32,000 bases of DNA from Hwangdonia seohaensis. Lineage in GTDB: Bacteria > Bacteroidota > Bacteroidia > Flavobacteriales > Flavobacteriaceae. The stretch covers positions 356,856 to 388,855 of the forward strand of contig NZ_JAVSCK010000003.1 of NCBI RefSeq assembly GCF_031932625.1, read 5' to 3'. Each line of letters begins with the position of its first letter. Position 1 is the stretch's first letter. Below, piece after piece: positions 2 through 7,599 of the stretch. Below the pieces are notes generated by a model. That model was not told where the DNA came from and did no database searches. It saw nothing but the letters and a program-made list of their open reading frames with translations. Position numbers and translations under genes: made by a program.

Positions 2-3000
2 CGAAGTGTTCAAGACTACTATGTAAAATATGCTTTGTCTTCGGCAAGTGGGGTTTCCGAGGTCGCTTCAATTGGTGGCTATGTTCAGGAATATCAAATT
101 GATGTGAACCCAGAACTCATGCGCCAATACAATATTGGATTGAACCAAGTTGTAAAAGCTGTAAAGGAAAGTAATAAGGACATTGGTGCACAAACCTTGG
201 AAATCAATAAAGCGGAATATTTAGTACGCGGTTTGGGCTATGTGAAATCCATTTCAGATATTGAAAATGCTGTGGTGACTTCAGAAGATTTCACGGCAAT
301 CAAAATTAAGGATATTGCTAAAGTAGCTTTAGGGCCTGCAGCTCGAAGAGGCATATTGGATAAAGAAGGTGCAGAAGTTGTTGGAGGTGTAGTTGTGGCG
401 CGTTATGGTGCCAATCCGATGGAAGTGATTAACAACGTTAAAGAAAAAATCAGTGAATTAAGCACTGGATTGCCGTCTAAAATACTAAAGGACGGAAGAA
501 CATCACAACTAACCGTAGTACCTTTTTATGATCGTTCCGAACTCATTCAAGAAACCTTAGGCACCTTAAATGAAGCCTTAACTTTAGAGGTTTTAATTAC
601 CATTTTGGTGATTATCATTATGGTATTCAATCTTCGGGCATCCATTTTAATTTCCGGCCTATTACCCGTCGCCGTATTAATGGTATTTATCGCCATGAAA
701 CTCTTTAATGTTGATGCTAATATCGTGGCGCTTTCTGGAATTGCGATTGCTATTGGAACCATGGTGGATGTTGGGGTCATACTTTCAGAAAACATCATCA
801 GGCATTTGGATGAGGACGATGGAAAAGAATCTATAAATACAGTGGTGTACAACGCTACCGCTGAAGTATCTGGAGCTATCGTAACCGCAGTAATGACCAC
901 CATTATCAGTTTCATCCCTGTGTTTACCATGATTGGTGCCGAAGGCAAATTATTCCGGCCATTGGCCTTTACCAAAACCTTTGCGTTAACCGCTTCCATT
1001 TTGGTGGCCTTGTTTTTGATTCCACCCTTTGCTGCGTTTTTATTCCGAAGAAAAAGCATTAAAAAAAGTTTCAGTTATATTTTAAATGCGGCTTTGGTTT
1101 TAGCAGGATTAATAGGTCTTTTTTATGGCTATTGGTTAGGCATTATTCTGATGGCTTTTGGTGTTACCGGCGTTTTAAAAGGTCAAGAGATAGTTAACGC
1201 AAAACGAGCAAATCTTATAAATATCATAATTTCTGCAACTGCCATTGTATTTCTTTTAGCGGAATATTGGCGACCATTGGGTGTTGATAAAAGTATTTTC
1301 TGGAACCTCATTTTTGTTGGGGTCATTTGCTTCGGATTGTTAGGTGTATTTGCCTTATTCATAAAGTTTTATACGCGAATTTTAAGATGGTGTTTAAATA
1401 ACAAGTTGTTGTTTCTATCTGTACCAACAGCCATTGTGATTGCCGGTTTTTTCATCATGAAAAACACAGGTAAGGAGTTCATGCCATCGCTAAATGAAGG
1501 TTCATTTTTATTGATGCCGACCTCGATGCCACATTCTGGAGTTGAAGAAAACAAACGGGTTTTACAACAATTGGATATGGCAGTTGCCAGTATTCCTGAA
1601 ATTGAAACCGTTGTGGGTAAAGCAGGTAGAACCGAATCGGCTTTAGACCCTGCGCCTCTCTCAATGTACGAGAATATTATTCAGTATAAACCAGAATATA
1701 TGCTGAATGAAAAGAGAGAACGTCAACGCTATAAAGTAAATGATGATGGTGAATATGTATTAAAAAACGGAATGTCATTGCGAGCGGAACAAAGTGAAGC
1801 GTGGCAATCTGTTAATGTCAAAGAACAACTAATAGAAGATAACGACGGAGAATTCTACCGCAACTGGCGACCGGAAATTAAATCACCTGATGATATTTGG
1901 GACGAAATCGTAAAAGTTACCAAATTACCAGGAGTAACCTCGGCACCAAAACTACAACCTATTGAAACGCGACTGGTGATGCTTCAAACAGGCATGCGCG
2001 CTCCTATGGGAATCAAAGTAAAAGGTCAAGATTTAAAGCAAATTGAAGCCTTTGGAGTCCAATTGGAAGATATACTAAAGCATGCCGAAGGAGTTAAACA
2101 AGAAGCTGTTTTTGCAGACCGAATTGTTGGGAAACCGTATCTGTTAATTGATATCGATAGAGAGAAAATTGCCAGATATGGCATCACGATTGAAGAGGTT
2201 CAAAATGTACTAAAGGTTGCCATAGGTGGTATGGTGCTCACGCAAACCGTTGAAGGTAGGGAGCGTTATGGCGTTCGTGTGCGATACCCAAGGGAGTTAC
2301 GAGGAGATCCTTCCGATTTAAAACAAATTTATATTCCAGTTGAAAAAGGCAGTCCGGTGCCGTTAAGCGAATTGGCAAGTATTCGTTATGAACAAGGGCC
2401 ACAGGTGATTAAAAGTGAAGACACCTTTTTAGTGGGTTATGTGCTTTTTGATAAATTGGATGATTTTGCAGAAGTAACCGTTGTTGAAAACGCACAAGCT
2501 TTGATACAAAGTAAAATAGATTCCGGTGAACTCATCGTGCCAAAAGGCATTAATTACCAATTTACAGGAACTTATGAAAATCAAATAAGGGCCGAAAAAA
2601 CCTTATCGGTAGTTGTGCCATTGGCATTGGCCATTATCTTTTTGATTCTTTACTTCCAATTCCGTTCCGTAACCACGTCTTTAATGGTGTTTACAGGAAT
2701 TGCCGTGGCTTTTGCGGGTGGGTTTTTAATGATTTGGCTTTACGGTCAAGGTTGGTTTTTAAACTTCAATTTCTTTGGCGAAAATATGCGAGACCTCTTT
2801 CAAATGCATCCTATTAATTTAAGTGTGGCCGTATGGGTTGGGTTTATTGCACTCTTCGGAATCGCAACCGATGATGGTGTGGTTATGGCAACCTACTTAA
2901 CGCAAACCTTCCGTAGAAATACACCCGAAAACAAGAAGGAAATTAGAGCATCCATTGTCGAAGCTGGAGAAAAACGAATCAGACCGTGTTTGATGACAAC

Positions 3001-3178
3001 AGCAACCACCATTTTAGCTTTATTGCCCATTTTAACATCTACAGGACGCGGAAGCGACATTATGATTCCTATGGCAATCCCAAGTTTTGGAGGCATGCTT
3101 ATCGCGTTAATTACCTTGTTTGTAGTCCCGGTTTTATATAGCTGGAGAGCGGAGTTAAAAGTTAAAAGTGAGAAGTGA
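2..3178 (+). CDS. cusA: CusA/CzcA-family heavy-metal efflux RND inner-membrane pump, 5'-truncated by the window edge
   Basis: The reading frame is open from nt 2, and the TTG at 35 is only an ORF-caller start. The translation aligns by eye along its length with E. coli CusA (VASIGGYVQEYQIDVNP, GIAIAIGTMVDVGV, GKLFRPLAFTKTF, GEFMPSLNEG). Methionines sit at the three positions that form the CusA Cu(I)/Ag(I) site (LLMPTS, APLSMYE, RLVMLQTG). The 12-TM RND architecture is present, with extra hydrophobic inserts. Confidence 0.9.
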   Translation, partial: RSVQDYYVKYALSSASGVSEVASIGGYVQEYQIDVNPELMRQYNIGLNQVVKAVKESNKDIGAQTLEINKAEYLVRGLGYVKSISDIENAVVTSEDFTAIKIKDIAKVALGPAARRGILDKEGAEVVGGVVVARYGANPMEVINNVKEKISELSTGLPSKILKDGRTSQLTVVPFYDRSELIQETLGTLNEALTLEVLITILVIIIMVFNLRASILISGLLPVAVLMVFIAMKLFNVDANIVALSGIAIAIGTMVDVGVILSENIIRHLDEDDGKESINTVVYNATAEVSGAIVTAVMTTIISFIPVFTMIGAEGKLFRPLAFTKTFALTASILVALFLIPPFAAFLFRRKSIKKSFSYILNAALVLAGLIGLFYGYWLGIILMAFGVTGVLKGQEIVNAKRANLINIIISATAIVFLLAEYWRPLGVDKSIFWNLIFVGVICFGLLGVFALFIKFYTRILRWCLNNKLLFLSVPTAIVIAGFFIMKNTGKEFMPSLNEGSFLLMPTSMPHSGVEENKRVLQQLDMAVASIPEIETVVGKAGRTESALDPAPLSMYENIIQYKPEYMLNEKRERQRYKVNDDGEYVLKNGMSLRAEQSEAWQSVNVKEQLIEDNDGEFYRNWRPEIKSPDDIWDEIVKVTKLPGVTSAPKLQPIETRLVMLQTGMRAPMGIKVKGQDLKQIEAFGVQLEDILKHAEGVKQEAVFADRIVGKPYLLIDIDREKIARYGITIEEVQNVLKVAIGGMVLTQTVEGRERYGVRVRYPRELRGDPSDLKQIYIPVEKGSPVPLSELASIRYEQGPQVIKSEDTFLVGYVLFDKLDDFAEVTVVENAQALIQSKIDSGELIVPKGINYQFTGTYENQIRAEKTLSVVVPLALAIIFLILYFQFRSVTTSLMVFTGIAVAFAGGFLMIWLYGQGWFLNFNFFGENMRDLFQMHPINLSVAVWVGFIALFGIATDDGVVMATYLTQTFRRNTPENKKEIRASIVEAGEKRIRPCLMTTATTILALLPILTSTGRGSDIMIPMAIPSFGGMLIALITLFVVPVLYSWRAELKVKSEK

Positions 3179-3240
3179 GAAGTGAAAAGTGAAGAATGAA
3201 CAGTTAAAAGTGAAGAGTAAAAAACTAAAAGTTTAAAGTT
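3154..3240. repeat. Tandem array of about 12 degenerate 7-bp units (consensus GTGAAAA/GTTAAAA) spanning the cusA stop codon and the whole cusA to four-helix-bundle spacer
   Basis: Read directly: gttaaaa gttaaaa gtgagaa gtgagaa gtgaaaa gtgaaga atgaaca gttaaaa gtgaaga gtaaaaa actaaaa gtttaaa, then gtt and the ATG at 3241. The first units encode the CusA C-terminus ELKVKSEK. Confidence 0.85.
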
Positions 3241-3600
3241 ATGAGTAAAAGTATTTTAAAAGATAAAAGTTATGCCTTTGCAATTATGGTCGTAAAACTG
3301 TCTCAGATTTTAGTTTCTGAAAAAAGAGAATTTGTATTAAGTAAGCAGTTTTTGAGAAGTGGAACCGCAGTTGGCGCATTAATTAGAGAGGCTGAATTTG
3401 CTCAAAGCAAGAAGGATTTTGTAAACAAAATGAGTATTGCACTTAAAGAAGCTAATGAAACATTGTATTGGTTGGATTTGTTGAAAGATACTGGCTATAT
3501 AAATGAAGAAGAGCATCAATTACATTTTGTTTTAAATAAGGAATTAGTTGCCATGTTAGTAAGCTCTATTAAAACAACAAAATCAAATATTCAAAAATGA
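3241..3600 (+). CDS. Four-helix-bundle protein (23S rRNA intervening-sequence protein / Avd-like family)
   Basis: 119 aa. Its size and motifs (KSYAFAIMVVKL, QFLRSGTAVGALIREAEFAQSKKDF, ALKEANETLYWLDLL) match my recollection of the TIGR02436/PF05635-type family. It is inserted between two efflux genes. Confidence 0.75.
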   Translation: MSKSILKDKSYAFAIMVVKLSQILVSEKREFVLSKQFLRSGTAVGALIREAEFAQSKKDFVNKMSIALKEANETLYWLDLLKDTGYINEEEHQLHFVLNKELVAMLVSSIKTTKSNIQK

Positions 3601-3659
3601 AACAGTTTATATACACATTAAAAGCAGTTGATTTTAGTTTTCTAGACATTATATTTCGT

Positions 3660-4871
3660 ATGAAAACTGTTTTGATTTTTAGTTTTTCACTTTTCACTTT
3701 TCACTCTATGAGTGCTCAAGAATTGGAAACATTGATAAACGAAGCTTTAGAGAACAATCCTGAAATTCAAAAGTTCGATTTTCAGCATCAAATTGCGTCC
3801 GAAAAAGTAAACGAAGTGAACAGTTTACCAAATACCGAATTTAACTTTGGCGTTATGGCTGTAAAACCTGAAATGGATATGCCAATGGAACGTTTTCGAG
3901 TTTCCGTTATGCAAATGTTACCTTGGTTTGGCACCATAACGGCACGAGAAAATTATGCGACTTCGATGGCCGATGCACAGTACATTGAAATAACGATAGC
4001 GAAACGAAAATTGGTGCTTTCGGTGTCGCAACTTTATTACCAACTGTATGAAATTAAATCCAAACAAGACGTTTTGGACAAAAACATTGCACTCTTACAA
4101 TCTTACGAACAGCTTGCCCTCACTTCGTTAGAAGTAGGTAAAGCATCAGCCGTAGATGTTTTACGATTACAGATCAGACAAAATGAATTGCAACAAGAGA
4201 AAGAGGTATTAGTTCAGCAATATAACGGGATACAAGCAGCATTGAATGGTTTGTTGAATCGTGATTATGATGTTAAGGTATCTGTGGTTTCTGCTATGGT
4301 AATTCCAGAAGACGATAATTTTTACAGTTATGAAAGTTTGGAAGTAAACCCAGAGTTGCTCAAATTTGATAAATTGTATCAATCGGTAGAGCAGTCCGAA
4401 TTGTTAAACCAAAAAGAAAGTGGCCCGATGATAGGTTTTGGCGTGGAATATATCAACCAAGAAAACAGCCCAATGATTACCAGTTCGTATAAAGATATGG
4501 TGATGCCCATGTTGTCGGTTTCCATACCTATTTTCAATAAAAAGTATAGCTCTCAAACCAAACAAAACGAATTGCGTAAACAGGAAATCCAATCGCAAAA
4601 AGAACAACGATTTAATATGTTGAAATCGGAACTGTCAAAAGCCATTTCGCAGCGAAATCAGTCGCGAATTAAGTTTGTTACCCAAGAGAAAAACCTAAAA
4701 CAAGCCAAAGATGCCGAAACCATTTTAATTAAAAGTTACGAAACCGGAACGATTGATTTTAATGATGTTTTGGATATTCAGGAATTGCAATTAAAATTCC
4801 AAATGAATCAAGTAGAGTCGGTTAAAAACTATTATGTGCAATCGACAGTAATTAATTATTTAAGCAATTAA
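3660..4871 (+). CDS. TolC-family outer-membrane efflux protein (CusC-like)
   Basis: The signal peptide MKTVLIFSFSLFTFHSMSAQ begins at the ATG at 3660, so the ORF-track start at 3597 would bury it. The protein shows the two-repeat coiled-coil/beta-barrel OEP pattern and sits in an operon with cusA. Confidence 0.8.
   Translation: MKTVLIFSFSLFTFHSMSAQELETLINEALENNPEIQKFDFQHQIASEKVNEVNSLPNTEFNFGVMAVKPEMDMPMERFRVSVMQMLPWFGTITARENYATSMADAQYIEITIAKRKLVLSVSQLYYQLYEIKSKQDVLDKNIALLQSYEQLALTSLEVGKASAVDVLRLQIRQNELQQEKEVLVQQYNGIQAALNGLLNRDYDVKVSVVSAMVIPEDDNFYSYESLEVNPELLKFDKLYQSVEQSELLNQKESGPMIGFGVEYINQENSPMITSSYKDMVMPMLSVSIPIFNKKYSSQTKQNELRKQEIQSQKEQRFNMLKSELSKAISQRNQSRIKFVTQEKNLKQAKDAETILIKSYETGTIDFNDVLDIQELQLKFQMNQVESVKNYYVQSTVINYLSN
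3670..3704. repeat. Inverted copy of the heptamer array (5 units TTTTNNN, the last 3 being perfect TTTTCAC)
   Basis: ttttgat ttttagt ttttcac ttttcac ttttcac. This is the reverse complement of the GTGAAAA units at 3154-3240. It lies inside the signal-peptide codons (FSFSLFTFHS) of the downstream OMP gene. Confidence 0.8.
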
Positions 4872-4872
4872 T

Positions 4873-7599
4873 ATGACACACACATATCACATACACGGAA
4901 TGACCTGCAACGGTTGTCGCAGTCACGTTGAAGACATACTTTCAAAAGTGGAAGGTGTTTCAGAAGCAACCGTCAATTTAGAAAAGGCTGAAGCCACTAT
5001 TGAAATGGAATCACATATTCCTATAGAAACATTTCAAGAGGCTTTGAAAAAGGATGGAGATACCTATACTATTCGCATTCAGAATGATGAGATTCCTGCT
5101 TCCGTAGGAATAAAATATCACGTACATGGCATGACCTGCAACGGTTGTCGCAGTCACGTTGAAGACATACTTTCAAAAGTAAAAGGTGTTTCAGAAGCAA
5201 CGGTCAATTTAGAAAAAGAAGAAGCTACGATTGAAATGGTATCACCTATTCCTATAGAAACGTTTCAAGATGCTTTGAAAAAGGATGGAGGAAGTTATAG
5301 TATTCATAAACTTGGAGAAAAGCCAGTGCAAAAAGAAAAAGTAGAAAAACCTAAAGGTAAAGGCACAGGCACTTTTTATTGCCCCATGCATTGCGAAGGC
5401 GATAAAACCTATGATAAAGCTGGCGATTGTCCGGTTTGTGGAATGGATTTGGTTGAGGAACAAAATTTATCTTCAACCCATTCCGAGCAATGGACCTGTC
5501 CTATGCATCCTGAAGTTGTGAAAGATGCAGCAGGTGCTTGCCCTATTTGCGGGATGGATTTAGTGCCCATGCAAGCAGATTTGTCTTCTGAAGAGAAAAC
5601 CTATAAAAAGCTGTTGAAGAAATTCTGGATTGCATCGATATTCACATTGCCGATTTTCATCATTGCCATGAGCGAAATGCTGACTAACAATCCATTATTT
5701 GAAATCATGCATCAAAAAAACTGGAATTGGATTCAGTTTGTATTGTCCATTCCCGTAGTTTTTTATGCCACTTGGATGTTTTTTGAACGTGCCTACAGAA
5801 GTATCAAAACCTGGAACTTAAACATGTTTACACTTATTGGGATTGGCGCAGGTGTAGCGTGGTTATTTAGTGTGTTCGGCATGTTTTTTCCAGATATTTT
5901 TCCAGAGCAATTCCTATCCGAATCCGGAGCAGTTCATGTTTATTTTGAAGCAGCAACGGTGATTTTAACATTGGTGCTTTTAGGGCAACTTTTGGAGGCG
6001 CGAGCACATAGTAAAACCAATTCGGCGGTAAAAGAATTATTAAAATTAGCACCAAATAAGGCTACAAAAATTGTAGATGGTGAAGATGTGGAAGTCAGTA
6101 TCGATAACATTGAATTAGGAGATATTCTAAAAGTAAAACCAGGCGATAAAATTCCTGTAGATGGCTCGATAACCGAAGGTGAAACCACCATTGATGAATC
6201 CGTGATTACAGGAGAACCGATTCCCGTAAACAAGTCGGTTGATGATAAAGTAAGCAGCGGAACTATAAACGGAAATCAAGTGTTCTTGATGAAAGCCGAA
6301 AAGGTTGGGAGCGATACCTTGTTGTCCCAAATTATCCACATGGTGAATGATGCCAGTAGAAGTCGCGCACCTATTCAGAATTTAGCCGATAAAGTATCTG
6401 GGTATTTTGTGCCTGCTGTGGTCATTATTTCGGTAATAACCTTTGCGGTTTGGGCCATTTGGGGACCAGAACCCGTTTATGTGTATGCTTTTGTAAATGC
6501 CATTGCGGTGTTAATTATTGCCTGTCCATGCGCGCTAGGATTGGCAACACCTATGTCAGTTATGGTCGGTGTTGGTAAAGGTGCTCAAAATGGTGTGCTG
6601 ATTAAAAACGCCGAAGCCCTCGAAAAAATGGATAAGGTAGATACCTTAATCATCGATAAAACAGGAACCATTACCGAAGGAAAACCAACGGTAGAAAAAG
6701 TGGGTGCCTTTGATTCTAATTTAACCGAAGCTGAGGTCCTGCAATATATCGTTTCGTTAAACAGCAATTCTGAACATCCACTGGCCGAAGCCACCGTTAA
6801 ATATGGAAAAGAACAAAAAGCGGAAGTCTTAAAATCCGAAGGATTTAGTGCCGTAACAGGAAAAGGGGTTGAAGGGAAAGTAAACGGTAAAAGCGTAGCA
6901 TTGGGAAATCCGGAAATGATGGATTATGCAAAAGCTGAAATTTTTACTGACATGGAAGACGAAGCAAAAACCTATCAAAAACAAGGCAAAACGGTTTCAT
7001 TTTTAGCAATAGACAAAGCTGTTGTTGGTTATGTGGTTATTGGCGATAAAATAAAGGCAACAAGCGCCAAAGCCATTAAAGAACTTCAAAACAAAGGTAT
7101 CGATGTTATTATGTTAACAGGCGATAACCATAACACCGCGCAAGCAGTTGCTACAGAGTTAAATCTTGCCGATTTTAAAGCCAGCATGTTACCAGAAGAC
7201 AAGCTCAAAGAAGTGGAAAAACTGCAAAAACAAGGCAAGGTTGTGGCAATGGCTGGAGATGGCATTAACGATGCACCGGCATTGGCGAAAAGTGATGTCG
7301 GCATCGCCATGGGAACGGGAACCGATGTAGCCATTGAAAGCGCTATGATAACTTTGGTTAAAGGCGATTTACACGGCATAGTAAAAGCCAAAAACCTAAG
7401 TCATGGTGTGATGAAAAACATCAAACAAAATCTGTTTTTCGCCATGATCTACAATACTTTAGGCGTACCCGTAGCGGCAGGCGTGTTATTTCCGGTTTTC
7501 GGAATATTGTTGTCACCAATGATTGCAGCATTAGCTATGAGTTTTAGCTCGGTATCGGTTATTGCAAATGCATTGCGATTAAGAACGATTAATATATAA
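4873..7599 (+). CDS. copA: Copper/silver-translocating P1B-type ATPase with 2 HMA domains and 2 CPMH...CPxCGMDL metal-binding modules
   Basis: Two [12 protein letters not shown] HMA motifs are present. The core motifs are TGEP (actuator), CPC in TM6, DKTGTIT, SEHPLA and GDGINDAP. The YN (IYNTLGVP) and MSFSS motifs are typical of Cu(I) pumps. Confidence 0.93.
   Translation: [908 protein letters not shown]
4885..5290 (+). repeat. Intragenic tandem duplication: two copies of about 175 bp (4885-5059 and 5116-5290), offset 231 bp, each encoding one HMA domain
   Basis: Hand alignment gives about 15 mismatches in about 175 nt. It includes a 50-nt identical run (atgacctgcaacggttgtcgcagtcacgttgaagacatactttcaaaagt). 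Confidence 0.9.

What the first reader, a model, noticed from the sequence alone, without database searches (positions are those of the whole stretch)
3154..3704. Avd/IVS-like four-helix-bundle mini-gene framed by inverted 7-bp repeat arrays that have become coding sequence of both neighbours
Seen: the left array has about 12 heptamers (GTGAAAA-type, 3154-3240). The right array has 5 inverted heptamers (TTTTCAC-type, 3670-3704). Together they flank the 360-nt ORF. The left array supplies the last codons and stop of cusA (ELKVKSEK*). The right array supplies the hydrophobic core of the CusC-like signal peptide (FSFSLFTFHS), just after its ATG at 3660. As RNA, gugagaagugaaaagugaaga (3175-3195) can pair with uuuucacuuuucacuuuucac (3684-3704) over about 21 positions if G-U pairs are allowed. 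The 7-nt periodicity permits several registers. Established: this protein family was first noted inside 23S rRNA intervening sequences, which are stem-loops excised by RNase III, and it is related to DGR Avd proteins. Inference, option one: a mobile mini-cassette inserted into the cusA-cusC junction. Inference, option two: the long-range stem is an RNase III processing or translational-occlusion device. It would uncouple cusA from cusC expression and mask the cusC initiation region. No reverse transcriptase or DGR template is nearby.
Basis: partly seen in the sequence, partly recalled or inferred. Interest (0 to 1): 0.6.

Follow-up and report, generated by a model that had tools for sequence, protein, structure and literature searches.

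The report
Heptamer-armed four-helix-bundle gene cassette
A small conserved gene of the family first seen inside ribosomal-RNA intervening sequences sits between a metal-efflux pump gene and its outer-membrane partner, bracketed by mirror-image runs of a 7-base repeat that now encode the pump's tail and the partner's secretion signal. The same gene-plus-repeat module recurs across bacterial phyla and is patchily present at this very junction.

Summary
A 14-unit GTGAAAA-type array (3153-3252) and an inverted TTTTCAC-type array (3668-3705) bracket a PF05635/TIGR02436 four-helix-bundle gene (3241-3600). The left array encodes the last codons and stop of cusA. The right array encodes the hydrophobic core of the TolC-like protein's signal peptide.

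This is not a local oddity:
- All 5 such genes in this genome have copy-specific flanking inverted repeats, as do 64% of 74 copies in relatives (2% in mismatched controls) and 15 of 18 plasmid copies from other phyla.
- The flanks show 7/14/21-nt periodicity.
- A true 23S rRNA IVS copy (Azospirillum) has the same build, and so does the published Coxiella IVS, which RNase III cleaves.
- The genes lie in sense orientation between co-directional neighbours (84/87 upstream, 86/87 downstream), and the G-rich arm is 5' in 65 of 67 cassettes.
- dN/dS is about 0.1.

Among 121 cusA-OMP junctions, 11 carry a cassette, scattered like random labels on the OMP tree. Three of these hold a different subfamily whose own arms sit beside remnants of the window-type array.

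RNase III processing is inferred, not shown. A cut in the stem here would sever the OMP start, and arm mismatches show no wobble bias.

This scan has reported the same cassette class many times on other DNA.

The parts
2..3178 (+). 3' part of a CusA/CzcA-family RND pump gene; its last 8 codons (ELKVKSEK) and its TGA stop (3176-3178) lie in the left heptamer array
   Evidence: PF00873 and TIGR00914 matches; sequence; alignment with the empty site of G001 loses identity after 3155
3153..3252 (+). Left (5', G-containing) heptamer array, about 14 units of GTGAAAA/GTTAAAA/GTGAGAA/ACTAAAA type; it runs from the cusA tail into the first codons of the four-helix-bundle gene
   Evidence: TRF period 7, 14.4 copies; orthologues have 3 to 22 such units
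3167..3206 (+). Segment of the left array predicted to pair with the right array; it includes the 14-nt perfect complement at 3180-3193
   Evidence: MFE fold; arms-only duplex -42.6 kcal/mol against -20.8 +/- 3.3 for shuffles
3241..3600 (+). Four-helix-bundle protein gene (PF05635 / TIGR02436, 119 aa); it belongs to a clade with SGTA(V/I)GAL in place of the family's SGTSIGAN motif
   Evidence: PDB 2RLD E = 2.5e-34; dN/dS 0.07-0.17 against orthologues; motif
3597..4871 (+). TolC/OEP-family outer-membrane factor gene; the ATG at 3597 overlaps the four-helix-bundle stop (ATGA); an in-frame alternative ATG lies at 3660; the mature part starts near 3712
   Evidence: ORF list; PF02321; G165 has only the first start; identity with the empty-site orthologue resumes at about 3712
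3668..3705 (+). Right (3', C-containing) heptamer array: TTTTGAT, TTTTAGT, then TTTTCAC x3; translated as the hydrophobic core (LIFSFSLFTFH) of the OMP signal peptide
   Evidence: TRF 3684-3705, 100%; sequence; the same array lies in the signal peptides of orthologues

Best explanation
What it is (about 0.85). This is an IVS-type cassette: a PF05635 four-helix-bundle gene enclosed by inverted, microsatellite-like heptamer arrays. It has the same build as the ORF-bearing intervening sequences of 23S rRNA, but it lies in sense orientation inside a protein-coding operon. It occupies the formerly overlapping cusA-stop/OMP-start junction. The module is an old resident of one lineage of this junction and is scattered on the OMP tree, which points to repeated loss, gain or recombinational exchange. 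Its arms have been taken over as coding sequence: the cusA tail with its stop, and the OMP signal-peptide core. The OMP start now overlaps the stop of the cassette gene.

How it most likely works (about 0.4, inferred).
- The cassette has no transcription of its own and rides the operon transcript.
- In that RNA the G-rich 5' array and the C/U-rich 3' array pair, in any of several registers, into a long stem with the gene in the loop.
- As in the Coxiella IVS and the H. influenzae hmw leader, that stem is a substrate for RNase III.
- At most loci a cut would release the cassette mRNA and separate the flanking cistrons.
- At this locus the 3' arm lies inside the OMP message. Stem formation or cleavage would therefore lower OMP expression unless ribosomes coming from cusA and the cassette gene keep the stem open.

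The protein is under purifying selection, so it does something for the cassette or the host. What it does is not shown.
For: Identity.

Inverted arms around every copy in the genome: scores 32-61 against 21.9 +/- 3.3. The four intact copies rank in the top 0.7% of 3021 ORFs.

Relatives: 64% of 74 copies score >= 32, against 2% of mismatched up/down pairs.

Periodicity: lag 7/14/21 self-match is 0.39/0.36/0.35 in both flanks, against 0.26 inside genes and 0.31 for all gene flanks.

Other phyla: 15 of 18 plasmid copies have inverted heptamer arms. One of these is a true 23S rRNA IVS in Azospirillum.

Published precedents:
- The Coxiella IVS has a 28-bp stem, strain-variable tandem GACAGAT units and a mapped RNase III cut at the first unit (PMC4990558).
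- The hmw (ATCTTTC)n hairpin is processed by RNase III (PMC12721329).

RNase III is present in this genome.

Links to transcription: neighbours are co-oriented in 84/87 (upstream) and 86/87 (downstream), with a median of 54 nt from the upstream stop. The 5' arm has G > C in 65 of 67 cassettes.

The protein is constrained: dN/dS 0.07-0.17.

History:
- Empty and filled junctions.
- 11 changes on the tree for 11 filled tips; shuffled labels give 10.7.
- A second subfamily with its own arms sits beside remnants of the window-type array: on both sides in G143, upstream only in G055.
- Arms resemble each other more as the proteins do, even at different loci.
Against:
- Arm mismatches are G-U 78 against A-C 84, so nothing shows selection on pairing specifically in the sense RNA.
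- The whole 581-nt fold is not more stable than shuffles (z = -1.3).
- The reversed right arm pairs almost as well as the real one (-39.9 vs -42.6).
- A cut inside the stem would separate the OMP start (3597 or 3660) from its body.
- Array lengths on the two sides are very unequal in orthologues (3-22 units on the left), more than a stem needs.
- Two cyanobacterial copies have direct, not inverted, arrays.
- About a third of the copies in relatives show no significant inverted repeat.
- No transposase, no target duplication and no near-identical copies at different sites were seen.
Confidence: 0.55

Rival explanations
1. Protein-repeat recognition. The ring-forming (pentameric) four-helix-bundle protein binds its own heptamer array, one unit per subunit, as single-stranded RNA or DNA. 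The arrays would then be its operator or substrate, for autoregulation, protection or propagation of the cassette. The stem would be secondary.
For: - Each protein subfamily keeps its own repeat class. At different loci, arm similarity rises with protein identity: 17% of pairs at 60-75% identity share arms, against 0% below 50%.
- The G-containing strand is 5' on the coding strand in 65 of 67 cassettes.
- The right array here has 5 units.
- The nearest solved relative, 2RLD, crystallised with five chains. Homopentameric toroids are reported for the family (PMC4990558).
- The protein is under purifying selection.
- Two copies with direct rather than inverted arrays still keep arrays on both sides.
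Against: - No binding data exist.
- Co-inheritance of arms and gene is equally expected from simple descent of a unit.
- The same GACAGAT-type unit occurs with distant proteins: this genome's C5 copy, the Azospirillum IVS and Coxiella. The Azospirillum protein is not close to the C5-type proteins.
- Array length varies from 3 to more than 20 units.
Confidence: 0.2
2. DNA-level element. The inverted arrays act as hairpin or cruciform ends of a mobile or recombining DNA module, through template switching or recombination at repeats. RNA pairing would be a by-product.
For: - Mismatches are symmetric between G-U and A-C types, as expected for DNA complementarity.
- Presence at this junction is scattered on the tree, and a second cassette sits beside remnants of an older array.
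- Gene-less adjacent inverted heptamer arrays exist in this genome.
- Inverted heptamer pairs without a named gene are reported in Xanthomonas (PMC4692102).
Against: - Arms are not conserved between copies, so no sequence-specific transposase fits.
- No target duplication is seen at the filled/empty boundary.
- No near-identical copies occur within a genome.
- The strong polarity (G-rich arm 5') and the sense orientation in operons are not explained by a symmetric DNA element.
Confidence: 0.15
3. Contingency repeats. The arrays are simple-sequence repeats kept because slippage switches the neighbours. One unit more or less in the right array frameshifts the OMP, and changes in the left array alter the cusA tail.
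For: - The unit length is not a multiple of three, and the right array lies inside the OMP reading frame.
- Unit numbers differ widely among orthologues.
- This genome has about 39 other heptamer arrays, 37 of them intergenic.
- Heptamer repeats drive phase variation in H. influenzae (PMC12721329).
Against: - There are only three perfect units here.
- All orthologues keep the OMP frame open.
- This does not explain why the arrays come in inverted pairs around one gene family across phyla.
- The left array carries a stop in reach of every frame, so cusA is buffered rather than switched.
Confidence: 0.08
4. Chance low-complexity sequence in an AT-rich genome, with no relation between the two arrays or to the gene.
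For: - The genome has 36% G+C.
- Pairing energy is largely compositional.
- Heptamer arrays are common in its spacers.
Against: - The score of 61 is ten standard deviations above the controls.
- The pattern repeats at 5 of 5 copies here, in relatives and in other phyla, with copy-specific complementarity.
Confidence: 0.02

Closest known systems
ORF-bearing intervening sequences (IVS) of 23S rRNA (Coxiella burnetii helix 45, Leptospira and others; Warrier et al. 2016, PMC4990558)
   Same: - A gene of the same protein family lies in sense orientation in the loop of a stem made by terminal inverted repeats.
- Tandem heptamers (GACAGAT, variable number) sit in the 5' arm.
- The size is about 430-550 nt.
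- An rRNA copy with heptamer arms was also seen here (Azospirillum, L132).
   Different: - The window's cassette lies between two protein-coding genes, not in rRNA.
- Its arms are translated as parts of both neighbours.
- The protein is under purifying selection here, whereas the Coxiella ORF is reported as decaying and probably untranslated.
- RNase III cleavage is shown there and only inferred here.
H. influenzae hmw1A 5'-UTR heptamer hairpin (Rapun-Araiz et al. 2025, PMC12721329)
   Same: A transcribed heptamer array forms one arm of a long mRNA hairpin with a complementary purine/pyrimidine-biased arm. That hairpin is cut by RNase III and affects expression of the downstream secreted protein. 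The repeat number is variable.
   Different: There is no enclosed gene there, and the hairpin lies in a leader rather than between cistrons. The repeat serves phase variation of an adhesin.
Heptanucleotide simple-sequence repeats: cyanobacterial STRR-type arrays, TAACTGA arrays (PMC4679880), inverted GGGAATC pairs of Xanthomonas and GGGGAYT of Nostoc (PMC4692102), Geobacter heptanucleotide elements (PMC2700814)
   Same: Arrays have the same period, are mostly intergenic, often abut start or stop codons, and sometimes occur in convergent pairs. The cyanobacterial plasmid copies examined here carry exactly such arrays.
   Different: Those reports name no associated gene family. Here the arrays bracket PF05635 genes.
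DGR accessory protein Avd
   Same: A homologous four-helix-bundle fold and pentameric ring (PMC10053308).
   Different: No reverse transcriptase is present anywhere in this genome, and no template or variable repeats were seen.
MITEs / REP elements
   Same: Small, bounded by inverted repeats, intergenic, and patchy among relatives.
   Different: The arms differ from copy to copy, a conserved gene is enclosed, and no target duplication or cognate transposase was found.

Membership tests
PF05635 / TIGR02436 four-helix-bundle (23S rRNA IVS protein) family | Profile match above the curated cut-off over the full length, about 110-130 aa | tested here: met
   PF05635 86.4 bits (cut-off 33.8), TIGR02436 97.5 bits (cut-off 24), 119 aa
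PF05635 / TIGR02436 four-helix-bundle (23S rRNA IVS protein) family | Sequence relation to a solved four-helix-bundle ring protein | tested here: met
   PDB 2RLD, E = 2.5e-34, residues 2-116; the entry holds five chains. No fold was predicted here.
PF05635 / TIGR02436 four-helix-bundle (23S rRNA IVS protein) family | Conserved motif with near-invariant S and N (GxxRxxxSxxxNxxE, as quoted in PMC3936711) | tested here: not met
   The window protein and all 7 orthologues at this junction have A and L at those two positions (SGTA[VI]GAL); sister groups keep S and N. This is a clade-specific change, not decay (dN/dS about 0.1). Family membership rests on the profile match.
ORF-bearing 23S rRNA intervening sequence | Inserted in a 23S rRNA helix | tested here: not met
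   It lies between cusA and an OMP gene; there is no Rfam match in 2900-4000
ORF-bearing 23S rRNA intervening sequence | Terminal inverted repeats that can form a stem enclosing a sense-oriented PF05635 ORF, with tandem heptamers in the arm | tested here: met
   compare PMC4990558
ORF-bearing 23S rRNA intervening sequence | Excision from the transcript by RNase III | not testable with these tools
Heptamer-armed PF05635 operon cassette (a class seen repeatedly by this scan; not found in print) | PF05635 gene, copy-specific inverted period-7 arrays, sense orientation between co-directional genes, G-containing arm on the 5' side | tested here: met
DGR (Avd with reverse transcriptase) | Reverse transcriptase gene and template/variable repeat pair nearby | tested here: not met
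   No PF00078 match in the whole genome
Transposon-like element (IS / MITE) | Terminal repeats shared among copies, target-site duplication, cognate transposase | tested here: not met
   The five copies in the genome have different arms; no duplication is seen at the filled/empty boundary; no transposase is encoded in the cassette
Phase-variable simple-sequence repeat (contingency locus) | Repeat-number variation within populations that switches a reading frame or promoter | not testable with these tools
   Only between-genus variation was seen (3-22 units); no read data were available

The most novel reading that the evidence does not exclude
PF05635 proteins and heptamer arrays form one system. 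The pentameric ring protein would recognise its own 7-nt repeat and take part in making, maintaining or moving the armed cassette. Decayed or gene-less arms of such cassettes would then be a major source of the long-unexplained heptanucleotide repeats (STRR/LSSR) of bacterial genomes, and of new protein tails and signal peptides.
Probability: 0.15. Interest if true: 0.9.

Novelty: new variant of a known kind. Interest (0 to 1): 0.6.

Why it matters
- Function of an orphan family. PF05635 proteins are widespread and have no known function outside DGRs. Heptanucleotide repeats are likewise a common, unexplained feature of many bacterial genomes. A consistent physical link between the two, across Bacteroidota, Cyanobacteriota, Gemmatimonadota and proteobacterial rRNA, gives both puzzles a testable handle.
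- rRNA intervening sequences. The link suggests they are one special landing site of a general operon-dwelling cassette.
- A natural experiment. The cusA-OMP junction is empty, filled, or filled by a second cassette type in different relatives, and the distribution is scattered on the tree.
- New coding sequence. The repeat arms have become a pump's C-terminal tail and a secretion signal, which shows how such elements can create coding sequence.
- Regulation. If the stem is processed, it would also be a previously unrecognised control point inside a metal-efflux operon.

Tried and rejected
- Cross-phylum scan. The search for related loci on genome contigs with a 20-sequence alignment failed for lack of a conserved stretch. 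Cross-phylum copies were taken from the plasmid collection instead.
- Discarded measure. RNAduplex energy over 150-nt flanks did not discriminate: controls averaged -40 kcal/mol. An ungapped pairing score was used instead.
- Wobble test. A G-U against A-C test for selection on sense-RNA pairing came out neutral (78 vs 84).
- Heptamer relics in empty junctions. The aggregate lag-7 signal is weak (0.37 against about 0.33, similar to lags 6 and 12). Only some spacer-type junctions show clear gene-less arrays.
- Shared unit across phyla. I asked whether the GACAGAT-type unit shared by this genome's C5 copy, the Azospirillum IVS and Coxiella reflects close protein kinship. It does not.
- Single origin with vertical descent on the OMP tree. 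Rejected, because the filled tips are as scattered as shuffled labels.
- Known RNA families. None were found in 2900-4000.
- DGR reading. Rejected, because the genome has no reverse transcriptase.
Full report
**1. What is in the window**

Bases 2-3178 encode the 3' part of a CusA/CzcA-type RND pump. Bases 3241-3600 encode a 119-aa protein that matches PF05635 (86.4 bits) and TIGR02436 (97.5 bits). Bases 3597-4871 encode a TolC/OEP-family outer-membrane factor, and a copper P-type ATPase follows.

Tandem Repeats Finder reports a period-7 array at 3153-3252 (14.4 copies, 72% matches). It also reports a perfect TTTTCAC x3 at 3684-3705, preceded by two degenerate units.

cusA ends ...YSWRAELKVKSEK, with its TGA at 3176-3178 inside the left array. 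The right array is read as ...LIFSFSLFTFH..., the hydrophobic core of the OMP signal peptide.

The OMP frame is open from the ATG at 3597, which overlaps the stop of the small gene (ATGA).

**2. Pairing of the two arrays**

The MFE fold of 3140-3720 contains the long-range stem, about 3167-3195 with 3682-3711. The whole fold is no more stable than shuffles (z = -1.3).

The arms alone give -42.6 kcal/mol, against -20.8 +/- 3.3 for shuffled arms. A 14-nt perfect complement lies at 3180-3193 and 3686-3699. However, the reversed right arm gives -39.9, so the energy is largely compositional.

An ungapped pairing score (G-C 3, A-T 2, G-T 1, mismatch -4) gives 61. Controls give 21.9 +/- 3.3 (maximum 34) for 600 random placements of the same geometry, and 22.3 +/- 3.8 for 3021 ORFs of this genome. 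No Rfam family matches the region.

**3.

The genome (3.75 Mb, 36% G+C) has five TIGR02436 genes. Each is flanked by its own inverted repeat, mostly with 7- or 14-nt periodicity and with different units. Unit types include GTTAAGY, AAAATTC, GATGACN paired with CTGTCAT, and GTTGGAA/GCACGAA.

Their scores are 32-61. The four intact copies score 61, 41, 37 and 36. Only 27 of 3021 ORFs reach 35.

**4. Relatives**

For 74 copies from 25 genomes of the same family and order:
- The mean score is 37.1, and 64% reach 32.
- Pairing the upstream flank of one copy with the downstream flank of another gives 21.9 +/- 3.8, and only 2% reach 32.
- Self-match of the 100 nt on either side peaks at lags 7, 14 and 21 (0.39-0.40, 0.36, 0.35). 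Inside the genes and in distal flanks it is about 0.26. The average for all gene flanks of this genome is 0.30-0.31, with a 95th percentile of 0.40-0.41.

Heptamer arrays are not exclusive to these genes. The genome has about 39 arrays of four or more units, 37 of them intergenic, and most are far from a four-helix-bundle gene.

**5. Other phyla**

A tblastn search of the plasmid collection found 47 records, mostly cyanobacterial. I examined 18 copies.
- Fifteen have inverted arrays. Units include TAGGGAG/CTCCCTA, GGGTGTA/TACACCC, AGGTGAC/GTCACCT and GGGAACA/TGTTCCC, with scores of 36-93.
- Two have direct arrays on both sides (Pseudanabaena, Oscillatoria).
- One has none.

These arrays are G+C-richer, and no matched control was run for that set.

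Several copies lie inside cas operons: between cas6 and cas4, and between cmr2 and cmr3. This fits an earlier remark that such genes occur in cas loci (PMC3936711).

One copy (Azospirillum lipoferum, L132) lies in a 23S rRNA gene, with (GANGACA)n and (TGTCNTC)n arms and a score of 77.

**6. What is in print**
- The Coxiella burnetii IVS carries an ORF of this family in a 28-bp stem. Two or three tandem GACAGAT units lie upstream of the ORF, and their number differs between strains. RNase III cuts at the first unit, and the excised RNA is labile (PMC4990558).
- In H. influenzae, a transcribed (ATCTTTC)n array forms a long hairpin with a G-rich arm. RNase III processes the hairpin, and the hairpin is needed for changes in repeat number (PMC12721329).
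- Heptamer arrays without a named gene are described in Beggiatoaceae, cyanobacteria and Bacteroidetes (PMC4679880). They are also described as convergent pairs in Xanthomonas (PMC4692102) and in Geobacter (PMC2700814).
- I found no paper linking the arrays to PF05635 genes outside the Coxiella case.
- Earlier agents of this scan reached the same class-level reading many times on other DNA, including arms that donate signal peptides.

**7. Features that bear on mechanism**
- Orientation. The upstream neighbour is co-oriented in 84 of 87 copies and the downstream neighbour in 86 of 87. The median distance from the upstream stop to the ATG is 54 nt. The cassettes therefore sit in sense orientation inside transcription units.
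- Polarity. In 65 of 67 informative cassettes the 5' arm has more G than C, and its mean purine content is 0.67. A symmetric DNA element would not need this polarity.
- Selection on the protein. dN/dS is 0.07-0.17 for orthologous pairs.
- Wobble test. Inside the best-paired segments, G-T/T-G mismatches (78) are no more frequent than A-C/C-A mismatches (84). There is thus no sign of selection on pairing specifically in the sense RNA.
- Array length. Orthologues at this junction have 3 to 22 left units, as expected of slippage-prone repeats.
- Enzymes. RNase III is encoded in the genome. No reverse transcriptase is, which excludes a DGR role.

**8. History of this junction**

In the same-genus genome G001, cusA (96% identical tail) ends ...AEFQLKRTVK and its stop overlaps the OMP start (ATGA). 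The OMP there is 90-92% identical to the window's. There is no small gene and no GTGAAAA or TTTTCAC array.

Identity between the two genomes is lost after 3155 and resumes at about 3712. About 556 nt in the window stand against about 98 nt in G001. No target duplication is seen, and the OMP N-terminus is rebuilt.

The closest relatives of the window's protein (65-85% identity) come from eight other genera and lie at the same cusA 3' end. They have the same repeat class and the same array in the OMP signal peptide. All of them share A and L at two positions where the family almost always has S and N. This speaks for a single origin.

A survey of 121 distinct cusA-OMP junctions of the family gave:
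- 95 tight junctions;
- 15 with a 125-211-nt spacer, several carrying gene-less GAGAATA-type and TTCTTTG-type arrays;
- 8 with this cassette;
- 3 with a different four-helix-bundle subfamily that has its own GGAAGCT/AGCTTCC-type arms. In G143 these arms lie between remnants of the GTGAAAA and TTTTCAC arrays. In G055 only the upstream GTGAAAA-type remnant is kept. In G239 the upstream side is cut off by the contig end.

I built an OMP tree (IQ-TREE, quick search, LG+G4) and counted changes by parsimony. The 11 filled tips need 11 changes. Shuffled labels need 10.7 on average, with a minimum of 9. Three filled tips have an unfilled sister within 0.11-0.24 substitutions per site.

This means repeated loss, gain or recombinational exchange. 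The tree cannot tell which.

Across loci, arm similarity rises with protein identity even where the flanking genes differ. A second orthologous group, after a YggS-like gene, carries the same repeat class with about 60% identical proteins. Arms and gene therefore descend together as one unit.

**9. Reading**

The identity of the element is well supported: it is an IVS-type, heptamer-armed four-helix-bundle cassette in an operon.

The most likely mode of action is that the arms pair in the operon transcript and the stem is seen by RNase III. This rests on two experimental precedents, on the sense orientation and on the polarity.

It is weakened by the neutral wobble test and by the geometry at this locus. 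The 3' arm lies 70 nt inside the OMP reading frame, so a cut would remove the OMP start. At this junction the stem is more plausibly a brake on OMP expression that translation from upstream relieves, or simply a tolerated legacy. I put the RNA-stem/RNase III mechanism at about 0.4.

The rivals are binding of the arrays by the ring protein (0.2), a DNA-level hairpin element (0.15), a contingency repeat (0.08) and chance (0.02).

**10. Verdict**

The processing idea remains an inference.

Relative to print, this is a new variant of a known kind: ORF-bearing rRNA intervening sequences. Within this scan it is one more member of a class already seen many times. This report adds:
- a 121-junction survey showing scattered presence, plus a second cassette type beside remnants of the first;
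- the 65:2 polarity of the arms and the near-universal sense orientation;
- the neutral wobble test;
- the clade-specific change of two near-invariant residues.

Noticed in passing
G000:C3:629307-629618, G000:C4:183029-183343, G000:C3:204714-205091, G000:C5:363739-364125, G000:C1:493966-494340: By eye, these other small genes (104-129 aa) look like GIY-YIG, GxxExxY/PD-(D/E)XK and DUF559-type nucleases; no profile search was run on them. They rank among the highest flanking inverted-repeat scores in the genome (77, 39, 53, 47, 40), but their arms are ordinary rather than heptamer-periodic. They may be a sister class of stem-enclosed small-gene cassettes.
   Followed up: partly
G000:C3:85413-85498: Two adjacent arrays, (AAAGTTC)n and its complement-like (TGAACTT/TGAATCT)n, form a gene-less heptamer hairpin in a spacer.
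   Followed up: no
G000:C2:786440-786930: A 99-aa ORF (unsearched) is flanked on both sides by direct arrays: GAGAATA x5 plus TTTTAAC x4 upstream, and TGAATAA x7 plus the same TTTTAAC unit x5 downstream.
   Followed up: partly
G000:C3:225620-225725 and G000:C4:231418-231554: Long, nearly perfect heptamer arrays (TTACTCA x15, TCATAAC x20) abut gene ends and are not near any four-helix-bundle gene.
   Followed up: no
G000:C2:117742-118065 (L005): This four-helix-bundle copy has an in-frame TGA, but its 14-nt-period arms are intact. The orthologue in the same-genus genome (L055) is intact.
   Followed up: partly
L144 (G143) and L222 (G055), cusA-OMP junctions: A different four-helix-bundle subfamily (45-48% identical to L071/L023) has its own GGAAGCT/AGCTTCC-type arms. 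In G143 it sits between remnants of the GTGAAAA and TTTTCAC arrays. In G055 only the upstream GTGAAAA-type remnant remains. This looks like a nested insertion or a gene replacement.
   Followed up: partly
window 3346-3393 (residues 36-51 of the small protein): All eight proteins of the cusA-junction clade have A and L where the family is nearly invariant for S and N (SGTA[VI]GAL against SGTSIGAN in sister groups).
   Followed up: partly
L125 (Pseudanabaena plasmid) and L134 (Oscillatoria plasmid): These copies have long arrays of the same orientation on both sides: (AAAAGCT)n with (AAAAGCC)n, and G-rich GGGAGAG-type arrays. They are exceptions to the inverted layout.
   Followed up: no
L124, L125 (between cas6 and cas4), L136 (between cmr2 and cmr3): Cyanobacterial plasmid copies sit inside CRISPR-Cas operons.
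   Followed up: no
L145, L199, L212, L223 (spacer-type cusA-OMP junctions): These junctions lack a small gene but have a purine-rich GAGAATA-type tract after cusA and a (TTCTTTG)n-type array inside the OMP signal peptide. They could be leftover arms.
   Followed up: partly
window 4871-4896: A 13-nt unit (ATATCACACACAC) occurs twice at the OMP-stop/copA-start junction.
   Followed up: no
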